Assembly: GCA_034422835.1 (NCBI GenBank)
Contig: DAOUJJ010000005.1
Location: forward strand, 74,891-138,890
Direction of reading: 5' to 3'
Origin: Dehalococcoidia bacterium
Lineage (GTDB): Bacteria > Chloroflexota > Dehalococcoidia > UBA6926
Length of the DNA stretch: 64,000 nucleotides
The position numbers and the translations under genes are program-made. The notes beneath the pieces were generated by a model that ran no database searches, had not been told where the DNA came from, and worked only from the letters and a program-made list of their open reading frames with translations. Each line of letters opens with the position of its first letter. Positions within the stretch are counted from its first letter, which is position 1. Shown piece by piece: positions 2,433 through 48,958 of the stretch.

Positions 2433-3236
2433 TTAGGCGCGCTGGTTGATCATGATGAGGGTGCCGAAGAAGTCCTGGGGGTGGACGACGCGGATGACGC
2501 TGTCGCCCTCAGGGTCTTCGATGACACGAAGTCCCTGCGATTTGATGTGCTCGGCCAGGCCGGCGGCGTCGTCTGACTCAAGGACGATGCCAAAGACACC
2601 AGGACCCCGTTCCTCGATGAACTTGGCCAACGGGCCCTCCTCCGAGGTCTGCTGGGCGAATTCGACCTCGGCGTCGCCCGCGTCCAGCCAGCCGGCGATG
2701 ATGCCGGCGTTCTCCCGCTCGGAGTTGCGATTTAGTTTGAGGTCAAAGCTCTTCGACCAGTTTGCGACCGCGGCGTCACGGTCAGGCGTTGCGATGGTGA
2801 TGTGGTGAAGCTTGAGGTCATGGTCGGTGGGGGTGCGGCGCGTGATCTGGGCAACCTCGACAAGGACGCCGTTGGCGGCGCGGGGGTGGATGAAGTCCAC
2901 CTCGCCGACAAAGCCGGTCTCAGGCTCGCCCTGGATGAGTTGGACCTCGCGTTCCTTTAGGGTGGCGATGGCAGCGTGAATGTCCTCCACCTCGAAACAG
3001 ACATGCTGTATGCCCTCGCCACGGCGTGCGATGAACCTGCCGACGGCGCTTTCCGGATCTATGGGCTGCATGACCTCAAAGCGGACGTTTGCGGTGGGGA
3101 GGAGGGCGGCAACGAGGCCGCGCTCTTCGATGACCTCCTGGGCGGCGATCTTCAGGCCGAAGAGATTTTCAAAGGCGTCCGTCGCCTCCTTGAGGTCACG
3201 GACGACGACGCCGATGTGGTCGATTGCTTTGAACAT
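2433..3236 (-). CDS. two-domain VOC protein, candidate methylmalonyl-CoA epimerase
   Basis: The ORF track extends it to 3746, but that extension is Arg/Ser-rich and overlaps the mutase gene in another frame. The true start is ATG at 3234-3236 (MFKAIDHIGVVVRDL...), preceded by an AAGGAGG Shine-Dalgarno (rc of 3251-3257). VOC fold (HIGVVV, HHITIA). Context between the MCM subunits supports an epimerase role. Confidence 0.7.
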   Translation of the reverse strand: MFKAIDHIGVVVRDLKEATDAFENLFGLKIAAQEVIEERGLVAALLPTANVRFEVMQPIDPESAVGRFIARRGEGIQHVCFEVEDIHAAIATLKEREVQLIQGEPETGFVGEVDFIHPRAANGVLVEVAQITRRTPTDHDLKLHHITIATPDRDAAVANWSKSFDLKLNRNSERENAGIIAGWLDAGDAEVEFAQQTSEEGPLAKFIEERGPGVFGIVLESDDAAGLAEHIKSQGLRVIEDPEGDSVIRVVHPQDFFGTLIMINQRA

Positions 3237-3292
3237 CTTTAAGTTTGGCCTCCTTGGTTTTACGGTTCGAGTTCGCGGTGTTTTGCTTCGTT

Positions 3293-3322
3293 CTGGATTC
3301 CCGCTTTCGCGGGAATGACGGG
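3293..3322. repeat. family-A palindromic element, copy 1 (TGGATTCCCGCTTTCGCGGGAATGACGGGTGG)
   Basis: Inverted repeat ATTCCCGC/GCGGGAAT around a TTTC loop, 27 nt 3' of the mutase large-subunit stop. Near-identical copies at 5143, 12321 and 37455. Confidence 0.8.
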
Positions 3323-3348
3323 TGGAAAGCAGGAATGGGCGATGGGTG

Positions 3349-5013
<1,665 letters not shown>

Positions 5014-12320: not shown

Positions 12321-12350
12321 TGGATTCCCGCTTTCGCGGGAATGACGGGT
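12321..12350. repeat. family-A palindromic element, copy 3 (TGGATTCCCGCTTTCGCGGGAATGACGGGTAG)
   Basis: Identical to copy 1 over 29 nt, about 20 nt 3' of the tsf stop. Preceded by a second hairpin, CCCTCTCC-AAGC-GGGAGAGG (12295-12314). Confidence 0.8.
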
Positions 12351-35331: not shown

Positions 35332-36243
35332 CTATGCCTCGTCCTTCACTATCTGAATGAGCACTCCCGCCGCGCTCTTGGGATGAATCCACGCGAACTC
35401 GTCATTCGGCTTGCCGATGAGCTTCAGGCCGTTGCCCTGCACGAAATCGGCCGCGGCCTTGACGTCCTTCGTCGCAAAAGCGATGTGGTGCATGGTGCCG
35501 CTTGCGCTGCCGCCGTACTTCTCCAGGAAACGCGCCGTGCCGCTCGTGCTGTCATCCGGCGAGACGGCGAGGATCCCGCCGCCATTGTCGCCGGCAGGGA
35601 TGCTCAGCACGCGGACGTTGTCCGACTCGATCTTTCGACCGCCCTTGAGGACGTTCGTCCTGAGCATGTCGGCTCGCATGCCGATGACGTTGCACCAGAA
35701 ATGGCGGGCCTTCTCCATATCGCCTGCGACGACGCCGATGTGGTTCATCCGCGTGAAAACGCCCTTGCCCTGGTAGCGCTTGCCGACGTGATGGTCGTCC
35801 GTGAACCAGATCTCCAGCAGGATGCCCATGCAGTCGCGCGGGTGGAAGAACGCAACGCTGTCGAATGGCTCGTTCCTGGCAAGCTCCTCCGGTGAGGCGG
35901 CAATCTGCTGGATGCCGGACGCGCGCAGGTGCGCAACGTCATCGGGCACGTTCGTGGAGTGCAGGCAGACGTGGTGGAGCGCACCAACGCCGCCGCGCCG
36001 CTCGATGAATGTATGCGTTCCGCCGGGCGGGGTGCCGTCCGCAGGCGGAGCGTTCATCTCAAGCTCAGCGTTGCCGATGGGAATATCGAGAATGTCCGTG
36101 GGATCCGGGCCGCGCTGCTTGCTGCCCTCCGGCAGCGGTGAGCGGGTCTGGTCGACGTTCAGGCCGAGCCCGTCCGCAAAGACGTTCTTGGCCGTCACGA
36201 GGTCGGCGATGGCGATTCCTGCGTGGTGAATTCTGTCAAACAA
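35332..36243 (-). CDS. two-domain VOC-fold protein (MFDRIHHAGIA… type), paralogue of 36291-37322
   Basis: 303 aa with two VOC modules (FDRIHHAGIAI…ALHHVCLHS; FTRMNHIGVVAGD…GTMHHIAFAT). Roughly 60% identical by eye to the neighbouring gene. Confidence 0.7.
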   Translation of the reverse strand: MFDRIHHAGIAIADLVTAKNVFADGLGLNVDQTRSPLPEGSKQRGPDPTDILDIPIGNAELEMNAPPADGTPPGGTHTFIERRGGVGALHHVCLHSTNVPDDVAHLRASGIQQIAASPEELARNEPFDSVAFFHPRDCMGILLEIWFTDDHHVGKRYQGKGVFTRMNHIGVVAGDMEKARHFWCNVIGMRADMLRTNVLKGGRKIESDNVRVLSIPAGDNGGGILAVSPDDSTSGTARFLEKYGGSASGTMHHIAFATKDVKAAADFVQGNGLKLIGKPNDEFAWIHPKSAAGVLIQIVKDEA

Positions 36244-36290: not shown

Positions 36291-37322
36291 TTACTCGCCC
36301 ACTATCTCGGCGACCTCAGCTTCAGTCACGCCGTATTCGCTCGCAAGCTCCCTATTTGTTCGGCCTACCGTCTTGCCCTGCCGGATTGCGCGCGCTCGCT
36401 CTGATGGGCTGAGCGGCCTGGGTTTGCCCAGATCGTCCTTGACGATCTGGATCAGGACGCCTGAGGCGCTCTTCGGATGAATCCATGCGCTGTCGTCAGT
36501 TGCGGCGCCGATGAGCTGAAGGCCGCGTGACTGCACAACGTCCGCGGCGGTCTTGACGTCGGCAGTGGCCAACGCGATGTGGTGCATCGTGCCACCGGCC
36601 CGCGCGCCGTACTTCTCAAGGAAACGCGCCGTGCCGCTCTCGCTGTCGTCGGGATGAACGCACGTGATGCCGGAATCGCCCATCGGCAGATTCAGAACAG
36701 TCACGTTGTCGGATTCCACGTGCCGGCCGCCCTTGAGGACGTTCGACCTGAACATATCGACACGGAAGCCAATGATATTCGTCCAGAAGTGGCGAGACTT
36801 CTCGATGTCTGTCGCCACGACGCCGATGTGCGCCATCCGTGTGAATAGGCCTTCACCCTGGTAGCGCATATCAACGCGGTGATTCTCAGTCGGCCATATC
36901 TCAAACAGGATGCCCATGCAGTCCCGCGGATGGAAGAATGCAACGTCCGTCCACGGCTCGTTCTCGGCAAGGACCTCCAGCGGCGCGGCAACCTGCTGTA
37001 GGCCGGAGGCCCGCAGGTGGCCTACGTCGTCTGCCATGTTGGTGGTATGCAGGCACACATGGTGGAGCGCGCCCAGCCCACCGCGTGATTCCACAAACCG
37101 ATGAACGCCCGTGCCCTCTGCGGCGGCGGCGTTCAGTTCAAGTTCTGAGTGCCCGATGGGAATATCGATGATGTCCGTCGGGTCCGCCCCTCGCTGCGCT
37201 CGACCCTGGGGCCGTGGAGAGCGAATCCCGTCGACGCGAAGCCCAAGTGCGTCTGCAAAGATGTCCGTAGCTCCCTGGAGATCGCCAACGGCGATTCCGG
37301 CGTGGTGGACACGGTCAAACAT
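36291..37322 (-). CDS. two-domain VOC-fold protein with a roughly 45-aa C-terminal HTH-like extension
   Basis: 343 aa with the same architecture as 35332-36243. It carries the tail LGKPRPLSPSERARAIRQGKTVGRTNRELASEYGVTEAEVAEIVGE, which resembles a helix-turn-helix of the sigma region-4 or transposase N-terminal type. Confidence 0.7.
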   Translation of the reverse strand: MFDRVHHAGIAVGDLQGATDIFADALGLRVDGIRSPRPQGRAQRGADPTDIIDIPIGHSELELNAAAAEGTGVHRFVESRGGLGALHHVCLHTTNMADDVGHLRASGLQQVAAPLEVLAENEPWTDVAFFHPRDCMGILFEIWPTENHRVDMRYQGEGLFTRMAHIGVVATDIEKSRHFWTNIIGFRVDMFRSNVLKGGRHVESDNVTVLNLPMGDSGITCVHPDDSESGTARFLEKYGARAGGTMHHIALATADVKTAADVVQSRGLQLIGAATDDSAWIHPKSASGVLIQIVKDDLGKPRPLSPSERARAIRQGKTVGRTNRELASEYGVTEAEVAEIVGE

Positions 37323-37454: not shown

Positions 37455-37490
37455 GATTCCCGCCTTCGCGGGAATGACGAGTGGCGGAGC
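37455..37490. repeat. family-A palindromic element, copy 4 (AGATTCCCGCCTTCGCGGGAATGACGAGTGG plus a partial second unit)
   Basis: About 40 nt 3' of the nuoN stop. A second half-unit, GCGGGAATTACGGG, follows at 37478-37494. Confidence 0.75.
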
Positions 37491-37529: not shown

Positions 37530-39041
37530 TTATGGTGTGAAGGACGCGGCGGCCTCCGTTGCGCGGGTGATGAGCCAGAACGGAACGATGCCCAGGATAA
37601 TGACGCCGATGAGGCTGACGGCCATTGATGCCCGCAGCGAGAGGGAGCGCCCGGGTTCGCTCTCTGTCGCGGCGGGACCGCCGGACTGCCACAGCCGGCG
37701 CACGGGGCGCAGGTAGTAGTACGCGGAGACGAAGCTGTTGAGGGCGCCCGCCAGCGCCAGCCACCAGAGATCGCCCTGCACCGCCCCGTAGAAGAGGTAG
37801 ATCTTGCCAACAAAGAGCCCCGTGGGCGGCAGACCCACCAGTGAGATGAGCGCCACCGTCAGGACAACTGCGGCGAACGGCGACCGGGAGAATCCACCTG
37901 TCAATTCCTCGATGGAGTCGTTGCCGTTGGGCCGGCTGAGGGCGATGAGAGCACCGAACGCGGCCAGGTTTGAGAACGTGTAGGCCGCGAGGTAGAAGAT
38001 GACGCCGCTCGTTGCCAGTTCATAGACGTTCGCCGCGCTGTTGCCCATCACGGCAACGCCGATCAGGATGTAACCGGCCTGCGCTATCGTGCTGTAGGCT
38101 AGCAGTCGCTTGATGTTGGTCTGGATGATGGCAACCACGTTGCCGATGGTCATGGAGGCGATGGCAAGCGCGCCGATGAGCAGCGGCCAGTCCAGCGCAT
38201 CCAACCCCGCCTGCTCAAACGTAACGATGAAGAACCGCAGGAGGACGGCAAATCCGGCGGCTTTGGATGCCACGGAAAGGTAACCAACGATGGGCGTGGG
38301 CGCGCCCTCATAGACCGCAGGAACCCACATCTGGAACGGCACGCTGGAGATCTTGAAGCCGAACCCGACGATAATCAGCACGGCGGCCATGACTAGCGCG
38401 AGGTTGTTGGCTACGCCGCCTTCTGCGACGCGCTCCGCCACCACACCCGGCATGTCCGCGATGAACGTCGTGCCGGTCAGGCCAAACAGGATCGCCATTC
38501 CGTACAACATGACGGCCGTCGCGACGGCGCTGAGCAGCAGGAATTTCAGGGCTGATTCCGTGGAGCGCTCGTCCTTGAGCAGCGCTATCAGGGCGACAAG
38601 CGCAAATGTCTGGATCTCAAGCGCCAGAACGATGGAGATCAAGTCACCCATCGAGACGAGCAGCATCATGCCGACGGTCGCCAGCAGAAGGAGGCCGTAG
38701 TATTCGCCGTGGAAACGAGCTAGGCGGCGTTCAACGTAGGCGGGCGAGAAGAGAATAGCCAGCAGCGTCCCGCCAAGCACGATGAGCTTGAACATCGTGC
38801 CGAAGAGGTCTGTGACGACGATGCCGGAGTAGCTTGTGCCGGAGGCATCGGACGTCCAGAGCCAAACGGCAGCGCCGCCCGCCATGGCTACGCCCAGAGC
38901 GCTAAGCCACGCGAGAACTCGTTTGTCCCGCGCGATGAGGTCAACCAGGACAACGGCGATGGCGGCAAGCGTCAGGATGATCTCCGGCGCGAGATGCCCA
39001 AAGTCGATGCCCAGAGAGGCGGCGTCTATCTGCGTCGGCAT
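37530..39041 (-). CDS. nuoN: NADH-quinone oxidoreductase subunit N
   Basis: 503 aa with about 14 TM, the last gene of the nuo cluster. Antiporter-like fold. Confidence 0.9.
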   Translation of the reverse strand: MPTQIDAASLGIDFGHLAPEIILTLAAIAVVLVDLIARDKRVLAWLSALGVAMAGGAAVWLWTSDASGTSYSGIVVTDLFGTMFKLIVLGGTLLAILFSPAYVERRLARFHGEYYGLLLLATVGMMLLVSMGDLISIVLALEIQTFALVALIALLKDERSTESALKFLLLSAVATAVMLYGMAILFGLTGTTFIADMPGVVAERVAEGGVANNLALVMAAVLIIVGFGFKISSVPFQMWVPAVYEGAPTPIVGYLSVASKAAGFAVLLRFFIVTFEQAGLDALDWPLLIGALAIASMTIGNVVAIIQTNIKRLLAYSTIAQAGYILIGVAVMGNSAANVYELATSGVIFYLAAYTFSNLAAFGALIALSRPNGNDSIEELTGGFSRSPFAAVVLTVALISLVGLPPTGLFVGKIYLFYGAVQGDLWWLALAGALNSFVSAYYYLRPVRRLWQSGGPAATESEPGRSLSLRASMAVSLIGVIILGIVPFWLITRATEAAASFTP

Positions 39042-39047
39042 GACCGC

Positions 39048-40529
39048 CTACCCTCCGCCCACCAGCAGGGTCACGCCGTCACGGAACACGTCGGCCACGA
39101 GCGCGGGATAGACGCCGACAATGATGATCGGCAGAACAAGCAGCGCCATCGCCACGAAATCGGCTCGTGATGCGTCCTTTACGGACTGCCACCGCTCCTT
39201 CAACGGGCCGAGCAGCACGCGCTCCACCGTCCACAGGATGTAGCCCGCAGTCAGGACGATGCCCAGCACGGCGAAACCGGTCTGCCATGGATAGGCGTCG
39301 AAGCTGCCGAGGAAGACCATCAACTCCGCCGCGAATCCGCTCAACAACGGCAGGCCGAGGCTCGCGAGTCCGGCAAAGACAAACACCGCGCCAACAATGG
39401 GCATCCGCGCCATGAGACCGCCGAGGTCCGGGATGTGGCGGGTGTGCGCGTTCTCATAGATGATTCCGACGACAAGGAACAGCAGGCCGGTGATCGTGCC
39501 ATGCGCGAACATCTGCAAGGCCGCGCCCGTCACGCTCACGGCGCCAAGCGAGGCCACACCCAATAAGACCAGTCCCATATGGCTCACGCTTGAGTACGCG
39601 ACAAGTCGTTTGAGGTCCGTCTGTCTGAACACCACCGCCGCGCCGTAGAGCACGCTGATGACGGAAAAGGCCACGAGTACCGGCGCCCATTGCTCCATCT
39701 CAGCAGGGAACATGCCCACGTTGATGCGGATCAGGCCGTAGCCGCCCATCTTTAGCAGCACGCCGGCAAGGAGCACGCTGACGGCGGTCGGCGCGTCCGT
39801 GTGCGCGTCCGGCAGCCACGTGTGCAGCGGCCAGACCGGCAGCTTGATGGCGAACGCGGCCAGGAACATGAGGAAGATGGCATCCAGCCCGAGGAAGGCG
39901 ACGCGGAGAGTGTCCTCCTGCCCTGCCAGCGTCATCGCGCCCATATCGAATGAGCCGATGGCGAATCTCAGCGCAAGCACGCCCACAAGCATGAACGCGC
40001 TCCCAAAGAGCGTATACAAAACGAATTTCATGGCGGAGTATTCGCGGTGGCCGGTGCCCCACATCGCGATGAGGAAATACATCGGCACCAGCTCCACCTC
40101 CCAGAACAGGAAGAAGAGGAGCAGATCGCCCGCCACGAACACTCCCTGCACGCCGGTCAGCAGAAGCAACAGCCAGACATGGTACTCGCGGACGCGCTCC
40201 TTGACGTGCCACGACCCGAGCACGGCCACGACTCCCAACAGCGCCGTCAGGAAAACGAGCGGCATTGAGAGGCCGTCGATGGTCAGCAGATAGGAGGCGT
40301 TGACACCCGGAATCCACGGGTCTGACCCGTATTGTCCAAGCTGTTCGATGATCGGGCCGTTCGCGTTATAGGAGAGCCACGCGTAGGTTGCGAGAATGAG
40401 GTCAAGGATCATCGCTCCAAGCGCGATGCGCCGCACCAACATCTGCTCGCGTCCCGCAATCGCGACGGCCGCCGCTCCCGCCACAGGCAGGAAAACGATG
40501 AGGGTTATGAGGCCGTCGAAGGCTTGCAT
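39048..40529 (-). CDS. nuoM: NADH-quinone oxidoreductase subunit M
   Basis: 493 aa antiporter-like subunit, placed between nuoL and nuoN. Confidence 0.9.
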   Translation of the reverse strand: MQAFDGLITLIVFLPVAGAAAVAIAGREQMLVRRIALGAMILDLILATYAWLSYNANGPIIEQLGQYGSDPWIPGVNASYLLTIDGLSMPLVFLTALLGVVAVLGSWHVKERVREYHVWLLLLLTGVQGVFVAGDLLLFFLFWEVELVPMYFLIAMWGTGHREYSAMKFVLYTLFGSAFMLVGVLALRFAIGSFDMGAMTLAGQEDTLRVAFLGLDAIFLMFLAAFAIKLPVWPLHTWLPDAHTDAPTAVSVLLAGVLLKMGGYGLIRINVGMFPAEMEQWAPVLVAFSVISVLYGAAVVFRQTDLKRLVAYSSVSHMGLVLLGVASLGAVSVTGAALQMFAHGTITGLLFLVVGIIYENAHTRHIPDLGGLMARMPIVGAVFVFAGLASLGLPLLSGFAAELMVFLGSFDAYPWQTGFAVLGIVLTAGYILWTVERVLLGPLKERWQSVKDASRADFVAMALLVLPIIIVGVYPALVADVFRDGVTLLVGGG

Positions 40530-40532
40530 GAC

Positions 40533-42509
40533 CTAGCCCACGCCTCCCCATGCGATGTATGCGGCAATGATGATCACCGCGCCGATGGAGAGCACGGTGA
40601 TGGACGTTTGCAGCTGCCCGTTCTCGACCACGCGGATGCCCTTGCCCACGTTGCGCCCCACCAGGCCAAGCGTGTTGACCGCCCTGTCCACGACTCCCTT
40701 GTCGCTGTCGAACCACGCGAGGAACCGCCACATCCAGCCGTACAACGCCTTGCCGACAAACAGGTTCTCGTATAGCTCGTCCATGTAGTACTTGCGGGTG
40801 ATGAGGTTTGCTATTGGTGCTAGCGGGCCGCTGACGGACGGCGCGCTTGTCCTCCCGCCCCGGTATAGAACCGTCACCACGCTGATGCCAAGCAGTCCGG
40901 CCACAAGTCCGATAGCGGCGGGGATGACTTGAATCTCCTCCACGTGCGCGCCCAGCGGCTTCAGAAGATCGGTGAACCAGTGCGTGACCGGGAAATTGAT
41001 GAACCAGGAGCCGATGGCCAGCACCGCGAGAATCGCCATCGGGATGACCATGACCCACGGCGATTCGTGCGGGGTCGCGCCATGCCCCTCGTCATGGGTT
41101 TCATGGGCATCAGCGGAGCCGTCAGCTTCCTGCACCTCCCCGCCCCGGTATTGGCCGTGGAAAGTCATATACAGCGCGCGGAAGATGTAGGCGGCGGTCA
41201 TGAACGCGCCCACGATGGCCAGCACGAACAGGATCATTCCGAGTGCGCCTTCGTATGACCACGCGATACCGAGTATCTCGTCCTTGCTCCAGAAGCCAGA
41301 GAACGGTGGGATGCCAGCAAGGCTCAGCGAACCGATGAGAAAGACGCCGTAAGTCCACGGCATGACACGGCGCAGCCCGCCCATCAGGCGCATATCGAAC
41401 GTGCCGGTGGCGTGGTTGACGGAGCCGGAACCGAGGAACAGCAGCGCCTTGAAGAAAGCGTGGTTGAACAGGTGGAACAGCGCGGGGCCGAGCGCGCCAA
41501 GGCCGAGTGCCAGGAACATATAGCCCAACTGGCTGACGGTGGAATAGGCGAGAACGCGCTTGATGTCGTTCATCACGAGGCCCATCGACGCCGCAAAAAC
41601 GACGGTGAATCCGCCGATGAGCGCCACGATGGTCCGTGCAGTCTCCGCCTCCTCGAACAGCGGCAGGAATCGCGCCACGAGGAATACGCCTGCGGCAACC
41701 ATCGTAGCGGCGTGGATGAGCGCGCTGACGGGCGTGGGACCCTCCATCGCGTCCGGCAGCCACGTGTGGAGAGGGAATTGTGCGCTCTTGCCCGCCGCGC
41801 CCGCCATGATTCCCAGGCAGATAAGTGTCAGTCCCGTTCCCGTCAACGCCGCCCCGCCCGCGCTGAGCAGGTCCATGGAGGCGTTCGGGGCGCTGAGGGC
41901 GAACGTGACAGGTTGGTCATCCGGCCACAGCAGGAAGATTCCGAGAATGGCGAGTAGGAAGAAGAGGTCGCCGAATCTTGTGATGATAAAGGCCTTCTTG
42001 GCCGCTGCCGCCGCGCTCGGCCGCGTGAACCAGAACCCGATCAGCAGATACGAGCACAGCCCAACAAGTTCCCATCCCACGAACAGCAGGATCAGGTTGT
42101 TGGCAAGCACCAGCGTCAGCATCGCCGCCGTAAACAGGGCCATGAATGTGTAGTACCGGACGTAGCTCCTGTCGTCGCGCATGTAGCCATGTGAATAGAT
42201 CTGCACGAGGAGGCTCACGGACGTGACGACCACCAGCATGATGGCCGTCAGGCCGTCGAGGAGTAGTCCTATTCGAAGCGAAAATTCATCGACACGGATA
42301 ATCTCGTGGAGGGGTAGCACAACCTCCTGGTCTGTCCAAACGGCGTACAGCGCCCAGAGCGAGAGAATGAACGACAAACCGATGGCGCCAACGGTCGCGT
42401 CGAATGCGACACGCGACACCGGCCCACGCAGAGGACGGATAATCAGGCCGTTGAAAACGGCCGCCGCGAGCGGCGCGGCAATGATCAACCAGACTGCTGC
42501 CTCGGGCAT
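40533..42509 (-). CDS. nuoL: NADH-quinone oxidoreductase subunit L
   Basis: 658 aa with a long C-terminal amphipathic helix region, typical of NuoL. Confidence 0.9.
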   Translation of the reverse strand: MPEAAVWLIIAAPLAAAVFNGLIIRPLRGPVSRVAFDATVGAIGLSFILSLWALYAVWTDQEVVLPLHEIIRVDEFSLRIGLLLDGLTAIMLVVVTSVSLLVQIYSHGYMRDDRSYVRYYTFMALFTAAMLTLVLANNLILLFVGWELVGLCSYLLIGFWFTRPSAAAAAKKAFIITRFGDLFFLLAILGIFLLWPDDQPVTFALSAPNASMDLLSAGGAALTGTGLTLICLGIMAGAAGKSAQFPLHTWLPDAMEGPTPVSALIHAATMVAAGVFLVARFLPLFEEAETARTIVALIGGFTVVFAASMGLVMNDIKRVLAYSTVSQLGYMFLALGLGALGPALFHLFNHAFFKALLFLGSGSVNHATGTFDMRLMGGLRRVMPWTYGVFLIGSLSLAGIPPFSGFWSKDEILGIAWSYEGALGMILFVLAIVGAFMTAAYIFRALYMTFHGQYRGGEVQEADGSADAHETHDEGHGATPHESPWVMVIPMAILAVLAIGSWFINFPVTHWFTDLLKPLGAHVEEIQVIPAAIGLVAGLLGISVVTVLYRGGRTSAPSVSGPLAPIANLITRKYYMDELYENLFVGKALYGWMWRFLAWFDSDKGVVDRAVNTLGLVGRNVGKGIRVVENGQLQTSITVLSIGAVIIIAAYIAWGGVG

Positions 42510-42703
42510 TAGACTTTTCGCTCAATCTCTTCGGCGACGTGTTCACGGGCACGGGGGATGCAGACCTTGAACTCGGCGAACTCGTCGCCCCACTGCTCCA
42601 CGCGGTCGGGCATGATGCGTGTGGGCAGGCCCTCTCCTTCATAGAGGGTCTTCCACATCTCCGCGGCCTTCAGTCCCTTCACCCGCTTGAACTCAACCCA
42701 CAT
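42509..42703 (-). CDS. small conserved-looking hypothetical protein (64 aa) embedded between nuoK and nuoL
   Basis: The sequence is MWVEFKRVKGLKAAEMWKTLYEGEGLPTRIMPDRVEQWGDEFAEFKVCIPRAREHVAEEIERKV. Strong Shine-Dalgarno AGGAAAGAGAC before the ATG. Its TAA overlaps the nuoL ATG (TAATG). High GC3. The protein is soluble and charged with no TM. Confidence 0.55.
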   Translation of the reverse strand: MWVEFKRVKGLKAAEMWKTLYEGEGLPTRIMPDRVEQWGDEFAEFKVCIPRAREHVAEEIERKV

Positions 42704-42719
42704 GTCTCTTTCCTGTCCG

Positions 42720-43031
42720 TCACTTCAACAGATTGATCTCCGCCGCATCCACCGTGTTCCGCCGCGCAAAGATGGTCAGCAGAATCGCCAAGCCGATGGC
42801 AACCTCCGCCGCCGCCACGGTGATGATGAAAATGGCGAAGATATGGCCTGCAAGCTCGTCCACCGGGGAGTAGCGTGAAAACGCCACGAGCGCCACGTTA
42901 ACACCGTTCAGCATCAGTTCGATGGCCATGAGAATCACAACGACGTTGCGCTTGGCGAGAACGCCGACCAGTCCAACGGCAAATAGCCCGGCGGAAAGCA
43001 GGAGGTAGTGTTCAAGCGCGAGCGCGTCCAT
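42720..43031 (-). CDS. nuoK: NADH-quinone oxidoreductase subunit K
   Basis: 103 aa with 3 TM (…ELMLNGVNVALVAFSRY…). Confidence 0.9.
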   Translation of the reverse strand: MDALALEHYLLLSAGLFAVGLVGVLAKRNVVVILMAIELMLNGVNVALVAFSRYSPVDELAGHIFAIFIITVAAAEVAIGLAILLTIFARRNTVDAAEINLLK

Positions 43032-43043
43032 GCCCTGCCCGCC

Positions 43044-43547
43044 TCACCGCTCCCGCGCGATCACGAGCGCGCCAATCGTCGCAACAAGCAGCAGAAGTCC
43101 CGCCAGTTCGAACGGCAGGAGATACGTGCTGAACAACAGGTCAGGCAGGTGGACGCCTCCCGATGCCGCGTCGCCGACCATGGGTGAGATCGTTTCACCC
43201 CTGTCCTCACTGCGCCATTCCGTGTTGATCATGATGTACGCCAACCCGGCGAGCGTCGCCGCTCCGGTCAGCAGGCCGAGCGGCCAGAGTCGGTGGGAGT
43301 TGCTCGCCCTATTGATCTGCGCCGTCATCATCACCGCGAAGACGATGAGCACGGCAATGCCGCCAACGTAAATCAGGAACTGCGCGAGCGCTAGAAAGTC
43401 GGCGTCCAGCGTGATGTAGATGCCCGCGACGGCTGCGAGACTGACAAGCAGGCCCAACGCGGCATAGAAGAGGTTGCGCGCTGTCACGACGGCAAGCGCG
43501 CCGATCATGGCGGCGGTGGCGAGAAAGAAAAAAGCTAGAGTGACCAA
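43044..43547 (-). CDS. nuoJ: NADH-quinone oxidoreductase subunit J
   Basis: 167 aa hydrophobic protein with NuoJ-like sequence. Confidence 0.85.
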   Translation of the reverse strand: MVTLAFFFLATAAMIGALAVVTARNLFYAALGLLVSLAAVAGIYITLDADFLALAQFLIYVGGIAVLIVFAVMMTAQINRASNSHRLWPLGLLTGAATLAGLAYIMINTEWRSEDRGETISPMVGDAASGGVHLPDLLFSTYLLPFELAGLLLLVATIGALVIARER

Positions 43548-44041
43548 CGTCCCGCCTCGTGCTCCTCAAGCTCGTCCTTGCCTGTGTGCCCAATCATCTC
43601 CATCTGCGGGCGGAACTGCGTGCGCGGCTTCTTGGGCATCGCCTTCAGGTCCTCAACGCTGATAACCATGTCCTCACGGCCGTATGACGCTTGCTCGAAA
43701 TCACCGCCCATGTGGAGCGCATCGTAGGGGCAGACCTCCACGCAGAGCGCGCAGAACATGCAGCGGCCCGTATCGATGTCGAAAACATCAACGTGATAGT
43801 CGCTGCCTACCTGTGAGTGTGGTTCCGGGTGCGTGACGATGCGAATGATGCCGAGCGGGCAGCCCTTGGCGCACGTGGCGCAGCCAGTGCAGCGCTCCTC
43901 GTACCAGACGAAGGTGTTGCCGCGGAATCTTGGCGACTGCTCCAGCTTCTCTTCCGGATACTGCGTGGTGAACGGCTTGCGGCGGAGGTAGCCGAGCGTC
44001 ACCATCAGCCCCTTGATTGCTCCCGCGCCGAATAGAGCCAT
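43535..44041 (-). CDS. nuoI: NADH-quinone oxidoreductase subunit I (2x[4Fe-4S] ferredoxin)
   Basis: Carries two CxxCxxCxxxCP motifs (CTGCATCAKGCP, CMFCALCVEVCP). Confidence 0.9.
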   Translation of the reverse strand: MALFGAGAIKGLMVTLGYLRRKPFTTQYPEEKLEQSPRFRGNTFVWYEERCTGCATCAKGCPLGIIRIVTHPEPHSQVGSDYHVDVFDIDTGRCMFCALCVEVCPYDALHMGGDFEQASYGREDMVISVEDLKAMPKKPRTQFRPQMEMIGHTGKDELEEHEAGRWSL

Positions 44042-44050
44042 GGCCTCCTC

Positions 44051-45214
44051 CTACACCTGCGCTCCTGCCGGCGCAGCCAGTTGTTGATCGAATTTCGCAA
44101 GGCCGGGCACGCGCGCCAACAGCGCCAACACAACCACGGTCAGGCCGATATTGATGGCTGCGATGATGGCCAGCGCGGCGGTCGGCAGCGCCTCCCCGGG
44201 CTCCAGCGAGAACAGCGCTTGCATCGCCAAGATCTCTCCTGCCGTGACAAGGATGTTGATCGTCGCGAGCGGGAAAAGCAGCTTCCACGCCAGCGCAAGC
44301 ATCTGGTCGATGCGGACGCGCGGCCATGTGCCGCGGAACCAGAAGAAGAGGAACACAATCACCGAGGTCTTGAGGCCGAACCAGATAACGCCGCCGATAT
44401 CCGGCTTCCAGCCGGCGAAGAACAGCGTGACGATGACGGCCGACCAGCCGAGCGCGGCGACATACTCCGCGCCGTAGATGAGCGCGAATTTGGTGCCCGT
44501 GTACTCCGTGTGGAATCCGGCAACGATCTCCGACTCGGCCTCGTTGATGTCAAACGGCGTGCGGTTCAATTCCGCCGTCACGGCGATCAGCATGATGAGG
44601 AATCCGAGCGGCTGAACGAGAACGAAGGGGATGCCCTGCGCTTCGACAATCTCCTGCAGGTTCAGGGAACCGGCCAGCACAACGACGGACGTGACGGCCA
44701 GGATCAGCGGAACTTCATAACTGACGAGCTGCGCCACGCCGCGCACCGCGCCATAGAGTGAATACTTGTTGTTGGATGCCCATCCCGCCGCAAACGCGGC
44801 CAGCGACGATATGGACGTCACAGCGATGACATACACGATGCCCGCGTCCAGGTCCGCCACCGTCCAGCCGTCGAAGAACGGCACAACGGCAAACAAGGCG
44901 ATGGCGGGCGCAAAGAAGAGGATAGGCGCGATGAGAAAGACGAGTCTGTCGGCCGCGCGCGGCGTCAAGTCCTCTTTGAGCACCAGTTTCATGAGGTCGG
45001 CGACACCCTGCAGCAGGCCGAACGGACCAACACGGTTGGGGCCGATGCGATTCTGCATCCGGGCGACGAGTCGGCGCTCGGCGTAGGTCAGCATGACGGC
45101 GCTGCCGAGCAGGATGTTGACGACAATGAACAGCCCCAGCAGCGGCATGAGGATGTCAACCCAATCAACCGGCAGGTATCCCTCAAGGATGTCGCGAGTA
45201 AGGTCGGCAATCAT
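44051..45214 (-). CDS. nuoH: NADH-quinone oxidoreductase subunit H
   Basis: 387 aa with 8-9 TM (…RIGPNRVGPFGLLQ…). Confidence 0.9.
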   Translation of the reverse strand: MIADLTRDILEGYLPVDWVDILMPLLGLFIVVNILLGSAVMLTYAERRLVARMQNRIGPNRVGPFGLLQGVADLMKLVLKEDLTPRAADRLVFLIAPILFFAPAIALFAVVPFFDGWTVADLDAGIVYVIAVTSISSLAAFAAGWASNNKYSLYGAVRGVAQLVSYEVPLILAVTSVVVLAGSLNLQEIVEAQGIPFVLVQPLGFLIMLIAVTAELNRTPFDINEAESEIVAGFHTEYTGTKFALIYGAEYVAALGWSAVIVTLFFAGWKPDIGGVIWFGLKTSVIVFLFFWFRGTWPRVRIDQMLALAWKLLFPLATINILVTAGEILAMQALFSLEPGEALPTAALAIIAAINIGLTVVVLALLARVPGLAKFDQQLAAPAGAQV

Positions 45215-46365
45215 CGGTCAACCTCGCCCACGTTGATATCCAGCGTGCCGAAATTCACGATGAGATCGGCCAACTTCCAACCGATGCAGAGTTCGCGCAG
45301 GACGGTCAGGTTGATGAACGACGGAGCGCGGATACCGCAGCGGTACGGCGCAATAGTGCCGTCGCTGACAAGGTAGAAACCAAGCTCGCCCTTGGTGGCC
45401 TCGATGGCGCTATAGACCTCGCCGGCGGGCGGCCGGATGAAAAAGTCGGCGGGTGTGCGCGTGATGCCCTCAGGCAACTCGGCCATGCACTGCCGCACCA
45501 TCTTTGCGGACTCTTTCATCTCCTGCAGGCGCACCCACATGCGATCCCAGTTGTCCCCGTTCTGCGTTACAGGAACATCAAAATTCATGCGGTCGTAGAC
45601 CTCGTACGGCGCCTGCTTGCGGAGATCGAAATTGACGCCGGATGCTCGCAAGTTGGGGCCGGTGACGGAGCACTCGATAGCGCGTTCACCCGTCAACGAC
45701 GCGATGCCTTTCATGCGGGAGACAAGAATCTCGTTCTCCAGCAGCAGTTTCTCGTATTCCGCCACGCGCTCCTCAAAATCATCCAGGAAACCGTTGACGG
45801 CGGTGTCGAACCCAGGCGGCAGGTCGTGGGAGACGCCGCCGATTCTCATATAGCTGAACGTGATGCGCGCGCCGCAGATCATCTCAAACAGGTCCAGCAC
45901 CTTCTCGCGCTCGCGGAACATGTGCATGAGCGGCGTGACCCATGCGCCGAGGTCGTTGATGAGGAATCCGAGCGCCATCAGATGGCTGGCGATGCGCATC
46001 AGTTCGGCGGTCATCACGCGCAGATACTGCGCCCGCTCAGGCACCTCGACTCCCGCCAAGGCCTCCACGGCGCGGACGTAGGCGAGGTTGTTGGTCATGC
46101 CGGAGAGATAATCGAGGCGATCCGTCAGCGTGATGACCTGTGTGTAGCTCCGCTCCTCCGCGAGCTTGGAACTGCCCCGGTGCAGGTAACCGAACACCGG
46201 CTCAACGTCCACAACCTCCTCGCCGTCCAACAGCGCCCGTATGCGGAACACGCCGTGCGTGGACGGGTGCTGTGGCCCCAGGTTGAGCAGCACCGGCTCG
46301 ATATCATAGTCGGGCGAGTCGACCGTGTTGGGTTGTTGTGGCGACTGCATGGCAGGTCTACGCAA
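45211..46365 (-). CDS. nuoD: NADH-quinone oxidoreductase subunit D (49-kDa)
   Basis: Shows LNLGPQHPSTHGVFR and the NiFe-hydrogenase-like fold. Follows nuoC directly. No nuoE/F/G lies between D and H. Confidence 0.9.
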   Translation of the reverse strand: MRRPAMQSPQQPNTVDSPDYDIEPVLLNLGPQHPSTHGVFRIRALLDGEEVVDVEPVFGYLHRGSSKLAEERSYTQVITLTDRLDYLSGMTNNLAYVRAVEALAGVEVPERAQYLRVMTAELMRIASHLMALGFLINDLGAWVTPLMHMFREREKVLDLFEMICGARITFSYMRIGGVSHDLPPGFDTAVNGFLDDFEERVAEYEKLLLENEILVSRMKGIASLTGERAIECSVTGPNLRASGVNFDLRKQAPYEVYDRMNFDVPVTQNGDNWDRMWVRLQEMKESAKMVRQCMAELPEGITRTPADFFIRPPAGEVYSAIEATKGELGFYLVSDGTIAPYRCGIRAPSFINLTVLRELCIGWKLADLIVNFGTLDINVGEVDR

Positions 46366-46798
46366 AGTCTTTCCGCAGGGGATGGCCCGGAAAACCCTCC
46401 CACAGCAGGATCCGTTTCATGTTCGGATGGCCGTCAAACTCGATGCCGAACAGGTCATAGATCTCGCGCTCCTGCAGATTCGCGCCCTCCCACACCGGCG
46501 TCACGGACGGCAGGCTGAGCTCATCCCTGCCCCACACACGGACCTTGAGCGTGGCCTCCTGGTTGCGGCGGATGGAAAGCAGGCCGTAGCGCAACTCGAA
46601 CCGGTCGATGAAATCGACGGCGTCGATAGAGCGGAGCATCCGGAAATCAGTCTCATCATCGTCCCGGAGAAGCCGGCACACGTCTGCAATGGACTCAGGA
46701 GAGACAACAACCCACTCGTCGCGCTCCTCCTCAACTGCGTCCGGCAGCGCGGCACGGAGTTTCTCGGCGATGTCGTGACCTGACAGGGTGGTTGTCAT
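46358..46798 (-). CDS. nuoC: NADH-quinone oxidoreductase subunit C (30-kDa)
   Basis: 146 aa with NuoC-like sequence (…EGANLQEREIYDLFGIEFDGHPNMKRILL…). Confidence 0.85.
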   Translation of the reverse strand: MTTTLSGHDIAEKLRAALPDAVEEERDEWVVVSPESIADVCRLLRDDDETDFRMLRSIDAVDFIDRFELRYGLLSIRRNQEATLKVRVWGRDELSLPSVTPVWEGANLQEREIYDLFGIEFDGHPNMKRILLWEGFPGHPLRKDFA

Positions 46799-46804
46799 AC
46801 GGCC

Positions 46805-47470
46805 TCAGGAGATGAGTTTTCTCAGGCGCGGCCCACTCTCTTTCACAAGGGACTCGCGCTTGATCTTTTCCTGCAGCTTGAGGAGGCCGTGAAGCAAGGC
46901 GTCGGGACGCGGGGGGCAGCCGGGCACATAGACGTCGACGGGCACCAAGCGATTGACGCCCGGAACGACGCTGTAGCCCTGGTAATACGGCCCGCCGCTT
47001 GTGGCGCAGACACCCATGGAGATGACCCACTTGGGGTTCGGCATCTGCTCATAGATGCGGCGGACGACGGGCGCCATCTTCCACGTCACCGTGCCGGAGA
47101 CGATCATCAGATCAGCCTGTCGCGGCGAGGCGCGGAAGATCTCCATGCCGAATCGCGCTTGGTCGAATCGCGGCATCACGGCGGCGATCATCTCAAAGGC
47201 GCAGCAGGCGAGGCCAAGCGTAACGGGCCACACGGAGTTGGAGCGGCCCCAATCCAGCAGCGCATCAAGGGATGTGACGAGAACCGAGCGCTTGAGCGAC
47301 TCGGGAACCTCAATCGGCTCATCGACGTGCTGCTCCGTCGCCAGGGCGCGCAGCCGCTCGATAACCTCTCCCTCTTCATTGTCCAACTGGTTCGTGGTAA
47401 CTGTGAGAGGAATGCCGTAGGGCGAGGGCAGCTGCTCAGGCCCGGGCGGCGTGGGGGTCATTTCTGCCAC
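46805..47470 (-). CDS. nuoB: NADH-quinone oxidoreductase subunit B (20-kDa, N2 cluster)
   Basis: Shows GLACCAFEM…GVCATSGG…VPGCPP cluster-binding cysteines and a long acidic N-terminal extension. Confidence 0.9.
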
Positions 47471-47850
47471 TCAAGCGCCTCCTTTTTCCATTCATAGAGG
47501 AATCCAACGAGCACAAACAGGAGGAATATCGCCATGCCGATGAACGCCACCCATCCCAGTGAGAGAAATCGCGCCGCCCATGGCAGCAGGAAGATCACTT
47601 CAACGTCAAAGATGACAAAGAGCAGGGCGAACAGGTAGAAGCGGAAGTTGAATTGCACATTTGCCTCTCCCGTTGGGACCATTCCGGACTCATACGTCAT
47701 GCGCATGAACCGGGGCTCCTGGTCGGCGGGTGTGGAGGGTCGAATGCGGATGCGCTGAAGCATCCCGGAGAAGATCATCAGGCTCAGCGGAACGAGTACG
47801 GCGGCAACTGCCATAGCCGCGATAATCCAATACTTGCCACTCTCAACCAC
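47458..47850 (-). CDS. nuoA: NADH-quinone oxidoreductase subunit A
   Basis: 130 aa with 3 TM (…YESGMVP…[12 protein letters not shown]…), the first gene of the cluster. Confidence 0.85.
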
Positions 47851-47902
47851 TGTCGAGGCTCCCTAGGCAGGTCGGGTTCCGCTTGGCACCATAGCTCACT
47901 CT

Positions 47903-48958
47903 ATGTACGCGCGCGCGGCCATGTCAAATGGCATGGGTCGAAACGTGCCGTATCCTAATCGCATGACAATTCCTGCCGAACCGCTGCTAAGCGTGGACAA
48001 TCTGCACACGTCCTTTTTCACCCAGGACGGCACCGTCAAGGCCGTTCAGGAAACGAGCTTTGCCGTTCGCCCCGGGGAAATCCTGGGCATCGTCGGCGAG
48101 AGCGGCTGCGGCAAGACGACGGCGGGCCTCTCCGTGATGGGACTCGTGCCCTACCCCGGCCGGGTGGTGGACGGGCGCATCAGCTTCAGGGGAACCGACC
48201 TGGATGAGATGGACGAGGACGATCGTCGCATCCTGCGCGGCGAGGCGATGGCCATGATATTCCAGGACCCGCAGGCCGCGCTAAATCCCCTTATCACCAT
48301 CGGCGACCAGATCGCGGAGATATTCAACGCGCACGGGCGCATTGACGCGGATGAGGTGCGTGAGCAAACGCTGACGGCCCTGGCCTCGCTCGGCCTGCCG
48401 GACCCCGAGCACGTCATGCAAAGCTATCCGTGGGAGATGAGTGGCGGCATGTGCCAGCGGGCGATGCTGGCGATGATGCTGGTGCTGGAACCGGAGCTGC
48501 TCATCGCGGATGAGCCGACATCCGCGCTCGACGTGACGCTGCAAGCCGAGATTCTGGAACGAATCATGGGGTTGGCGAAAGACTCCGGCACGGCAATCAT
48601 CCTCATCACCCACGATATGGGTGTCATTGCGCGGGCGGCGGATAAGGTATTGGTGATGTACGGCGGGCGCATCGTGGAATCCGCCGACACGGTCACGCTG
48701 TTCCACAACCCCAGGCATCCCTATACCGCGGCGTTGTTGAACGCCGTACCCCGCCTGGACAGGGATACCAGGCCATTGCACGGCATTCCGGGGGCGCCGC
48801 CGGACCTGCTTGACCCGCCGGACGAGTGCCCATTCCTGCCCCGCTGCAACAAGGCAACCGTCGTCTGCCGCACAAATCCGATGCCGCCGCTGGTCACCAT
48901 CGATGAGGGGCACACCCTCGCCTGCTACAACCCCCTCACAGAGCCGCGGGTACGCTAA
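47903..48958 (+). CDS. ABC transporter ATP-binding protein (oligopeptide/dipeptide DppD/OppD type), orphan
   Basis: Walker A GESGCGKTT, signature MSGGMCQRA, Walker B LLIADEPTSALD and the C-terminal Opp-type extension. No permease or substrate-binding-protein genes are adjacent. The start is possibly ATG 47963. Confidence 0.75.
   Translation: MYARAAMSNGMGRNVPYPNRMTIPAEPLLSVDNLHTSFFTQDGTVKAVQETSFAVRPGEILGIVGESGCGKTTAGLSVMGLVPYPGRVVDGRISFRGTDLDEMDEDDRRILRGEAMAMIFQDPQAALNPLITIGDQIAEIFNAHGRIDADEVREQTLTALASLGLPDPEHVMQSYPWEMSGGMCQRAMLAMMLVLEPELLIADEPTSALDVTLQAEILERIMGLAKDSGTAIILITHDMGVIARAADKVLVMYGGRIVESADTVTLFHNPRHPYTAALLNAVPRLDRDTRPLHGIPGAPPDLLDPPDECPFLPRCNKATVVCRTNPMPPLVTIDEGHTLACYNPLTEPRVR

What the first reader, a model, noticed from the sequence alone, without database searches (positions are those of the whole stretch)
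42509..42703. Unannotated-type 64-aa soluble protein gene embedded between nuoK and nuoL
The ORF (MWVEFKRVKGLKAAEMWKTLYEGEGLPTRIMPDRVEQWGDEFAEFKVCIPRAREHVAEEIERKV) has an excellent Shine-Dalgarno (AGGAAAGAGAC-ATG). It starts 16 nt after the nuoK stop. Its TAA overlaps the nuoL ATG (TAATG). It has the genome's GC3 codon bias, so it is very likely translated as part of the complex-I operon. No known Nuo subunit sits at this position. A small charged protein here could be a lineage-specific accessory or assembly subunit of the 11-subunit complex.
Basis: seen in the sequence. Interest (0 to 1): 0.55.

Follow-up and report, generated by a model that had tools for sequence, protein, structure and literature searches.

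The report
Conserved small protein inside complex-I operon
A real, strongly conserved 64-residue soluble protein gene sits between nuoK and nuoL in the complex-I operons of Dehalococcoidia bacteria; its relatives sit beside other complex-I genes, so it is a good but untested candidate for a new accessory or regulatory subunit.

Summary
The ORF is real, on the minus strand at 42509-42703. It starts 16 nt after the nuoK stop and its TAA overlaps the nuoL ATG. It is a genuine gene: 88 of 88 loci keep an intact ATG-started ORF of 64 aa (four have 69 aa), always between nuoK and nuoL. Median dN/dS is 0.12, and it is as conserved as the core Nuo subunits. At least 345 species-level genomes encode it, and the 80 loci fetched are all labelled Dehalococcoidia, Chloroflexota or SAR202.

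It has a family, though a remote one. The peptide itself hits no Pfam model, but profile searches place it as a divergent branch of DUF2007 (PF09413). The model is confident (pLDDT 94) with a beta-alpha-beta-beta-alpha, PII-like fold.

Relatives also lie next to complex-I-type genes in two other arrangements. One is nuoI-X-nuoJ, in an Anaerolineae MAG. The other is X-(AAA_26)/DRTGG-nuoE-like-nuoF-like, seen in about 19 loci.

The best reading is a cytoplasmic accessory subunit or bound regulator of complex-I-type enzymes, possibly tied to electron input. Physical association with the complex is untested. Public records call it only "hypothetical protein", and I found no literature on it.

The parts
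42509..42703 (-). ORF64 ('X'): 64-aa, 7.65-kDa, pI 5.8 soluble protein, a divergent DUF2007-like domain. Predicted elements: beta1 2-9, alpha1 11-23, beta2 29-32, loop 33-43, beta3 44-50, alpha2 54-63.
   Evidence: Sequence. Conservation and selection. Structure. DUF2007 link.
42708..42714 (-). Partial Shine-Dalgarno-like AGGAAAG, 4-10 nt upstream of the ATG.
   Evidence: Only 42 of 87 homologous loci have an SD-like 4-mer, so this is weak support on its own.
42507..42511 (-). TAATG: the ORF64 stop overlaps the nuoL start by one base, an arrangement that allows translational coupling.
   Evidence: Relatives have -1 to about 135 nt here, so the overlap itself is not conserved.
42720..43031 (-). 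nuoK (103 aa), immediately upstream.
   Evidence: PF00420 at 92 bits and NF004320 at 107.5 bits, above its cutoff of 57.
40533..42509 (-). nuoL (658 aa), immediately downstream.
   Evidence: NF005141 at 653 bits, above its cutoff of 556, plus PF00361 and PF00662.
37530..47850 (-). Whole operon nuoA-B-C-D-H-I-J-K-X-L-M-N. It has 12 tightly packed genes and no nuoE, nuoF or nuoG.
   Evidence: nuoH and nuoI are assigned by tblastn correspondence to loci whose products hit PF00146 and Fer4. No terminator-like site lies at the K-X-L junctions.
47898..47927 (-). The only sigma-70-like promoter match in the region (TTGACA-18-TAGAGT), upstream of nuoA.
   Evidence: This is a consensus match only: 1 found against 2.5 expected in shuffles.

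Best explanation
ORF64 is a genuine protein-coding gene, transcribed and translated as part of the nuoABCDHIJK-X-LMN operon. It encodes a small cytoplasmic, mildly acidic protein with a single beta-alpha-beta-beta-alpha (PII-like, DUF2007-type) domain.

The most likely role is a lineage-specific accessory subunit, or a tightly bound regulator, of the complex-I-type enzyme of Chloroflexota. It would dock on the cytoplasmic face.

Two surfaces differ between sub-families, which makes them candidates for contacting the partner:
- the beta2-beta3 loop (residues 33-43, with conserved P32 and W38), which is topologically where PII proteins carry their T-loop;
- the exposed charged face of helix alpha2 (R53-E54-H55...E58-E59...R62-K63), which is nearly invariant in the nuoK/L-linked sub-family.

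A sister sub-family is encoded directly upstream of NuoE/NuoF-type genes, the NADH-oxidising module. The role may therefore concern attachment or control of electron input.

Shown: gene reality, purifying selection, operon embedding, the fold, the DUF2007 relationship, and three different complex-I-linked gene contexts.
Inferred: physical binding, location, interaction surfaces, and any link to electron input.
For: **Real gene**
- 88 of 88 loci have an intact ATG-started ORF, 84 of 64 aa and 4 of 69 aa.
- 86 distinct DNA sequences encode 60 distinct proteins.
- Entropy per codon position is 0.55/0.42/1.29 bits.
- Median omega is 0.124 over 1,729 pairs, and every pair is below 1.
- Protein identity of 77% is kept in a relative whose gene has 40% GC against 60% in the window gene.

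**Operon embedding**
- 87 of 87 fetched loci have nuoK directly upstream. nuoL is directly downstream wherever the contig extends (86 of 87; L030 ends just after X).
- At the distance where X is 55-60% identical, NuoK is 43-53%, NuoL 47-53%, NuoJ 31-43% and NuoI 55-63%.
- 345 species-level genomes encode it.
- The gene survives a GIY-YIG gene insertion next to it and variable spacers.

**Independent contexts**
- nuoI-X-nuoJ in L088-L090.
- X-(AAA_26)/DRTGG-NuoE-like-NuoF-like in L093, L096-L100, L102-L107 and L109-L115.
- L112 has a nuoD 3' end on the same strand 5 kb upstream.

**Homology between sub-families**
- hhalign gives 99.3% probability, E 6e-21.

**Fold**
- pLDDT 93.8.

**Background**
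- The electron donor and possible extra subunits of 11-subunit complex-I-like enzymes are an acknowledged open question (PMC11238625).
Against: - There is no proteomic, expression or structural evidence that X is made or binds the complex.
- Gene adjacency is circumstantial.
- The three contexts share no single neighbouring subunit (K/L, I/J, DRTGG/NuoE/NuoF), so no one docking partner is implied.
- The NuoE- and NuoF-like neighbours score below NCBIfam's NuoE and NuoF cutoffs. They could belong to another NADH-linked enzyme.
- Canonical DUF2007 proteins at the fringe of the family are not nuo-linked. One follows dnaE.
- The SD is weak or absent in about half the loci.
- I could not show that genomes with nuoK-X-nuoL also carry a NuoEF module.
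Confidence: 0.55

Rival explanations
1. X is a transient assembly factor or chaperone for complex-I-type modules, for example for membrane insertion or joining of the NuoL module, or for cofactor delivery. It would not be a component of the mature enzyme.
For: - It has the same operon embedding and conservation.
- It has different neighbours in different lineages: K/L, I/J and NuoE/F. That fits a factor acting on several modules better than a subunit with one fixed contact.
Against: - No similarity to any known assembly factor.
- It has no cofactor-binding motif in the nuoK/L-linked sub-family.
- It is as conserved as the core subunits, which is more typical of a stoichiometric partner.
Confidence: 0.2
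2. X is a small sensor or regulator of the PII-like kind. Its target is not complex I itself, for example another enzyme or a signalling partner, and it merely shares the operon's expression.
For: - Pfam labels DUF2007 as a putative signal-transducing domain with a PII-like fold.
- Fringe family members occur in unrelated contexts.
- The sister clade is always next to a DRTGG-domain protein. That domain is homologous to the N-terminal region of phosphate acetyltransferase. From memory only, that region is regulatory; I did not test this.
Against: - A strictly internal position between two membrane-subunit genes is kept in 88 of 88 loci, across more than 40% sequence divergence.
- It appears in an independent second position inside another nuo operon.
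- It has no T-loop-length insertion and lacks the fourth strand of true PII proteins.
Confidence: 0.15
3. The ORF is not functional as a protein. It is either a chance ORF in GC-rich DNA or a leader ORF whose translation matters only for coupling to nuoL.
For: - Many chance ORFs of this size exist in the window.
- The stop overlaps the nuoL start.
Against: - The amino-acid sequence is under strong purifying selection: omega is 0.12 and variability is concentrated at the third codon position.
- Length is constant across hundreds of species.
- The predicted fold is confident.
- It is homologous to a Pfam domain family.
- The overlap with nuoL is not conserved, while the protein is.
Confidence: 0.02

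Closest known systems
DUF2007 (Pfam PF09413, 'putative prokaryotic signal transducing protein'; reference structure PDB 2HFV)
   Same: - Same size, about 65 aa.
- Same beta-alpha-beta-beta-alpha layout.
- Same motif pattern: A-E-x-W/L in helix 1, the E-G-I/L-P turn, and V-P before helix 2.
- hhalign gives 99.2% probability to a DUF2007-positive set.
- 19 of 43 family members hit the Pfam model.
   Different: - ORF64 itself and its close relatives do not reach the Pfam model at all.
- They have their own near-invariant signature (MWVEF..., EGLPTR, REHVAEEI-RK).
- Unlike ordinary DUF2007 genes, they are locked inside nuo operons.
- No member of DUF2007 has a known function.
PII-like regulators encoded beside the membrane protein they bind (GlnK with AmtB, SbtB with SbtA)
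   Same: - A small soluble ferredoxin-like protein encoded directly next to genes for a membrane ion-translocating protein.
- The variable beta2-beta3 loop sits where PII proteins carry the target-binding T-loop.
- SbtB and GlnK are among the weak Foldseek hits.
- The GlnK-AmtB and SbtB-SbtA biology is from established knowledge and was not tested here.
   Different: - 64 aa instead of about 112.
- It lacks the last strand and a long T-loop.
- No PII Pfam match.
- Trimer formation and nucleotide binding are unknown.
Lineage-specific accessory subunits of bacterial complex I. These are Nqo15 and Nqo16 of Thermus, NdhS, NdhO and NdhV and others of cyanobacterial NDH-1, the NDUFS4, NDUFS6 and NDUFA12 homologues of Paracoccus, and the NDUFA9-like subunit of Mycobacterium.
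   Same: - A small soluble non-core protein restricted to one lineage.
- It is associated here by operon position with the complex.
- Cyanobacterial extra subunits serve electron input to an 11-subunit-type core (PMC11238625; PMC12361115).
   Different: - No sequence or top-ranking structural similarity to any of them.
- Those subunits were found in purified complexes, and X has not been.
- I recall no example of those genes embedded between nuoK and nuoL. That is memory, not a test.
MrpE of the Mrp antiporter, a relative of the complex-I membrane arm
   Different: The score is no better than dozens of unrelated ferredoxin-like folds. MrpE is membrane-anchored and X has no hydrophobic segment. 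There is no sequence similarity.

Membership tests
DUF2007 (PF09413) | Direct match of the protein to the Pfam HMM at or above the gathering score of 25.7 bits. | tested here: not met
   ORF64 has no Pfam hit even at E <= 10, and member 1 of A3 has none.
DUF2007 (PF09413) | Homology shown through intermediate sequences or profile-profile comparison. | tested here: met
   - Family members found with the ORF64 profile hit PF09413: P0140 at 40.9 bits, P0150 at 37.4 and P0101 at 27.5, all above 25.7.
- 19 of 43 members hit at E <= 0.1.
- hhalign of A2 against the DUF2007-positive set gives 99.2%, E 9e-20.
DUF2007 (PF09413) | Single small alpha/beta domain with the fold of PDB 2HFV. | tested here: met
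PII / GlnB family | About 112-aa b-a-b-b-a-b protein with a T-loop that matches the PII HMM. | tested here: not met
   It has 64 aa, no fourth strand and no PII Pfam match. Foldseek TM is only about 0.55-0.58 to SbtB and GlnK.
PII / GlnB family | Trimer that binds adenine nucleotides or 2-oxoglutarate. | not testable with these tools
   No oligomer or ligand prediction is available here.
Core complex-I subunits (NuoA-N) | Match to any Nuo, Ndh or Fpo family model. | tested here: not met
   No such hit in Pfam or NCBIfam. The neighbours all match strongly in the same searches.
Known accessory subunits of bacterial or cyanobacterial complex I | Sequence or structural similarity to a described accessory subunit. 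| tested here: not met
   - No Pfam family at E <= 10.
- No PDB sequence relative.
Accessory subunit of complex I (functional class) | Encoded with, and co-conserved with, the core subunit genes. | tested here: met
   It lies between nuoK and nuoL in 88 of 88 loci, is as conserved as the core subunits, and is present in 345 species genomes.
Accessory subunit of complex I (functional class) | Co-purifies with, or is resolved in, the assembled complex. | not testable with these tools
   This needs biochemistry or cryo-EM. Structure prediction returns no inter-chain information and does not accept joined chains.

The most novel reading that the evidence does not exclude
[quoted passage not shown] The same small domain is encoded either with the core (nuoK-X-nuoL, nuoI-X-nuoJ) or with the donor module (X-DRTGG-nuoE-nuoF). 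If so, it would give a handle on the long-open question of how 11-subunit complex-I-like enzymes receive electrons.
Probability: 0.12. Interest if true: 0.8.

Novelty: new variant of a known kind. Interest (0 to 1): 0.55.

Why it matters
Complex-I-like enzymes that lack the NADH-oxidising NuoEFG module are widespread. Their electron donors and any extra subunits are unknown (PMC11238625).

This work identifies a strongly conserved, uncharacterised small protein that is a fixed part of such operons in Dehalococcoidia, including at least one SAR202 MAG. Its sister clade is fixed next to NuoE/NuoF-type genes.

If it binds the complex, three things follow:
- It would add a new kind of bacterial accessory subunit.
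- It would give DUF2007 its first functional context.
- It would provide a concrete candidate to test for docking or regulating electron input.

It also corrects public annotation. The gene is labelled 'hypothetical' and is called with inconsistent starts of 49 to 91 aa.

Tried and rejected
**Searches that found nothing useful**
- Direct Pfam and NCBIfam scans of ORF64 found no meaningful hit. The only NCBIfam hit scored 14.8 bits against a cutoff of 355, which is noise.
- A profile search of PDB sequences found nothing, with the best E at 0.4.
- Foldseek against PDB gave no hit at E <= 0.001.
- Literature searches for DUF2007, for nuoK/nuoL intergenic genes and for Chloroflexota accessory subunits found nothing on this gene.
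- Rfam gave no hit anywhere in the window.

**Tools or approaches that did not work**
I repeated it with A2.

**Tests that were inconclusive**
- I tested whether the window encodes nuoE, nuoF or a DRTGG protein. None was found.
- A distant AAA_26/DRTGG homologue (L101) lies next to an ADP-forming acetyl-CoA synthetase with no X or NuoEF. The X link is therefore limited to a sub-clade of that family.

**Ideas considered and dropped**
- Co-folding X with NuoJ, NuoK and NuoL as a linker-joined chain. The tool bars sequences other than window or database proteins, and it returns no PAE or coordinates, so an interface could not be read.
- Long proteins with repeated partial hits to profile positions 2-26, such as P0146. 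These are repeats of a helix motif and not relatives.
- Homology to type-III-secretion ring-building motifs or to MrpE. I treat this as generic fold resemblance.
Full report
**1. Observation**

Reading the window confirms a 64-codon ORF at 42509-42703 with exactly the reported translation. It is on the minus strand. It lies inside a minus-strand operon:

| Gene | Coordinates |
|---|---|
| nuoA | 47458-47850 |
| nuoB | 46805-47470 |
| nuoC | 46358-46798 |
| nuoD | 45211-46365 |
| nuoH | 44051-45214 |
| nuoI | 43535-44041 |
| nuoJ | 43044-43547 |
| nuoK | 42720-43031 |
| ORF64 | 42509-42703 |
| nuoL | 40533-42509 |
| nuoM | 39048-40529 |
| nuoN | 37530-39041 |

- Pfam and NCBIfam confirm the neighbours.
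- The ATG is 16 nt after the nuoK TGA, and the TAA shares a base with the nuoL ATG.
- All twelve genes are packed with gaps of -13 to +16 nt.
- ORF64 has the same GC1/2/3 profile (0.65/0.37/0.78) as the nuo genes.
- The only promoter-like match lies upstream of nuoA, and no terminator-like site lies at the K-X-L junctions. These scans are weak evidence.
- The 'excellent' Shine-Dalgarno is really a partial AGGAAAG. Only 42 of 87 homologous loci have an SD-like 4-mer.
- A 64-codon ORF alone means little in 62% GC DNA, because one search lists many overlapping chance ORFs. The case must rest on conservation.

**2. It is a real gene**

- A search of 5.8 billion proteins found 34 relatives at 51-97% identity, nearly all exactly 64 aa, from Chloroflexi and Dehalococcoidia MAGs.
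- A scan of one genome per GTDB species found 345 genomes that encode it. The 80 loci fetched are all titled Dehalococcoidia, Chloroflexota or SAR202.
- Across the window plus 87 loci, 84 ORFs are 64 aa and 4 are 69 aa, and all start with ATG.
- 86 distinct DNA sequences encode 60 distinct proteins.
- Column entropy is 0.55/0.42/1.29 bits at codon positions 1/2/3.
- Nei-Gojobori omega has a median of 0.124 over 1,729 pairs, and every pair is below 1 (first estimates).
- One relative keeps 77% protein identity although its gene has 40% GC, against 60% for the window's gene.
- This rules out a chance ORF. It also rules out a leader ORF whose sequence does not matter.

**3. The position is conserved**

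- tblastn with the window's Nuo proteins shows the order nuoH-I-J-K-X-L-M in all 87 loci, as far as each contig reaches. Gene calls with Pfam labels agree.
- At the divergence where X is 55-60% identical, NuoK is 43-53%, NuoL 47-53%, NuoJ 31-43%, NuoI 55-63% and NuoM 54-57%. X is therefore as constrained as the core subunits.
- The gene persists despite local rearrangement. Close relatives have 10-135 nt between X and nuoL, including one or two copies of a repeat of about 60 nt.
- One relative (L025) has a 317-aa GIY-YIG gene inserted between nuoK and X.

**4. What the protein is**

- ORF64 itself matches no Pfam, NCBIfam or PDB sequence.
- A profile of the close family, searched against 1.84 billion representatives, finds only 117 proteins at E <= 0.001. 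Most are 60-66 aa and start with MW, so the family is small.
- Its more distant members match Pfam DUF2007 (PF09413). P0140 scores 40.9 bits, P0150 scores 37.4 and P0101 scores 27.5, against a cutoff of 25.7.
- 19 of 43 members of a broad alignment hit DUF2007 at E <= 0.1.
- Profile-profile comparison of the close family with the DUF2007-positive set gives 99.2% probability, E 9e-20.
- AlphaFold2 with the family alignment gives a confident model, with pLDDT 93.8 and pTM 0.77. Its elements are beta1 (2-9), alpha1 (11-23), beta2 (29-32), a less confident loop (33-43), beta3 (44-50) and alpha2 (54-63).
- The protein is 7.65 kDa, pI 5.8 (family median 5.4), hydrophilic, and has no hydrophobic segment. 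A cytoplasmic soluble protein is the plain reading, by inference.

**5. Relatives sit beside complex-I-type genes in two other arrangements**

This is the main new evidence.

(a) *nuoI-X-nuoJ.* P0101, a 64-aa family member that also passes the DUF2007 cutoff, lies between nuoI and nuoJ in nuoD-H-I-X-J-K clusters (L088-L090). A member of its cluster is annotated from an Anaerolineae MAG.

(b) *X with a NuoEF-type module.* A sister sub-family is 30-36% identical to ORF64. hhalign gives 99.3%, E 6e-21.
- It lies at the head of a four-gene module: X, an (AAA_26)/DRTGG protein, a NuoE-like gene and a NuoF-like gene.
- In a metagenome scan with that sub-family, 13 of 16 loci have the DRTGG gene directly downstream.
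- All 9 loci with enough DNA continue with the NuoE-like and then the NuoF-like gene.
- Two more loci are nuoK-X-nuoL.
- The flanks of the module vary (TPR, PMT, sugar genes), so the four genes are the conserved unit.
- In L112 the 3' end of a nuoD gene lies on the same strand about 5 kb upstream. That is where nuoE and nuoF would follow in a 14-gene operon.
- This sub-family has two conserved cysteines, at positions 28 and 45, which ORF64's sub-family lacks.

(c) *Caveats.*
- The NuoE- and NuoF-like proteins score below NCBIfam's NuoE and NuoF cutoffs: 125 against 141, and 439 against 559. 'NuoEF-type diaphorase module' is the safe label.
- A distant AAA_26/DRTGG homologue lies elsewhere, next to an acetyl-CoA synthetase and without X.
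- Canonical DUF2007 genes at the fringe are not nuo-linked. One follows dnaE.

**6. Mechanism**

- *Shown:* X is a conserved protein, co-located with complex-I genes in three different gene orders.
- *Inferred:* it works physically with complex-I-type enzymes as a small cytoplasmic accessory subunit or bound regulator.
- The parts conserved across the whole family are likely the structural core. These are MW at the N-terminus, A14, W17, E22, P27, the V-P before helix 2, and R53/H55/V56.
- The beta2-beta3 loop and the distal half of helix alpha2 are nearly invariant within the nuoK/L sub-family (P32, W38, E58-E59-I60, R62-K63). They differ in the NuoEF-linked sub-family. That is the pattern expected for partner-specific contact surfaces.
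- The loop is topologically where PII proteins carry their T-loop. This is an analogy from established knowledge of GlnK-AmtB and SbtB-SbtA, not a membership claim.
- One sub-family travels with the core and another with an NADH-oxidising module. The donor of 11-subunit enzymes is unknown (PMC11238625). A role in docking or controlling electron input is therefore the most interesting reading, but nothing here tests it.
- An assembly-factor role is the main rival.

**7. Comparison with what is known, and novelty**

- It is a divergent member of the DUF2007 superfamily, which has no known function. The six papers that mention DUF2007 do so once each, and none of the five listed has it in its title or abstract; I did not open them.
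- It is not a PII protein, not a core Nuo subunit, and not similar to any described accessory subunit.
- Recent surveys of prokaryotic complex I and its accessory subunits do not mention it (PMC12361115). Nor do the papers on 11-subunit enzymes.
- Public records label it 'hypothetical protein', for example MYD35901.1, with inconsistent start sites of 49-91 aa.
- I rate it a new variant of a known kind: a bacterial complex-I operon with a lineage-specific extra small protein, here of a family not previously tied to complex I.

**8. Verdict**

- Probability that the gene is real: about 0.97.
- Probability that it works with complex-I-type enzymes in any role: about 0.75.
- Probability that it is specifically a stable accessory subunit or bound regulator: about 0.55.
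- Interest: 0.55.

Noticed in passing
window 3297-3316, 12324-12343, 37456-37475: Three copies of a REP-like palindrome, GATTCCCGC[T/C]TTCGCGGGAATGACG, against 0.07 expected by chance. One lies about 55 nt downstream of the nuoN stop. The shared core is about 30 nt and the flanks are unrelated. Its translation (IPAFAGMT / TRHSREGGN) resembles peptide repeats inside the L025 insertion.
   Followed up: partly
L008-L013, L024, L025, about 4196-4330 (the spacer between X and nuoL): Close relatives of the window carry one or two tandem copies of a unit of about 60 nt (…CACAGCGGAATCTTCACCGCCAAACACTGAAACTAATGCAAGAGGCCCAAG…) between X and nuoL. The window and L019 have none and instead have the TAATG overlap. 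The nature of the unit (mobile repeat or RNA element) is unknown.
   Followed up: partly
L025 2992-3945: A 317-aa gene is inserted between nuoK and X. It has a GIY-YIG nuclease domain (PF01541, 31 bits) and proline-rich repeats. It looks like a mobile or homing element that landed inside the operon without disrupting X.
   Followed up: partly
L096, L097, L099, L104-L115 (sister sub-family; alignment A5): The NuoEF-linked sub-family of X has two conserved cysteines, C28 on beta2 and C45 on beta3, that the nuoK/L-linked sub-family lacks. They could form a redox or metal site.
   Followed up: no
L039, L050, L053, L071, L075, L078, about 2900-3640: In these loci about 700 nt separate the end of the nuoJ match from nuoK. 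This could be a much longer NuoJ or an additional gene.
   Followed up: no
window 35332-36243 and 36291-37322 (minus strand): Two tandem paralogous double-domain glyoxalase/VOC-family genes lie directly downstream of nuoN. The same pair follows nuoN in L005 and L007, which share 77% identity for X. In more distant loci an NAD kinase and a NUDIX gene follow instead.
   Followed up: partly
public records for the same gene (P0004, P0005, P0010-P0013, P0170, P0184): Gene callers give this gene inconsistent starts, producing forms of 49, 53, 79, 86, 87 and 91 aa. The conserved MWVEF N-terminus, and an ATG at that position in 88 of 88 loci, show that the 64-aa form is right.
   Followed up: yes
L112 166-837 and L114 175-696 (opposite strand, upstream of X): A NuoI-like 2x[4Fe-4S] ferredoxin gene of 223 aa in L112 (Pfam) is encoded divergently from the X-DRTGG-nuoE-nuoF module; L114 shows a NuoI-like tblastn hit at the equivalent spot. 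In L096 the divergent neighbours are an SdhA/AprA-like flavoprotein and a 68-aa ferredoxin.
   Followed up: partly
window 1-64000: No Rfam family reaches its gathering score anywhere in the 64-kb window on either strand. There are no riboswitches, no rRNA, and no tRNA by Rfam. ARAGORN was not run.
   Followed up: partly
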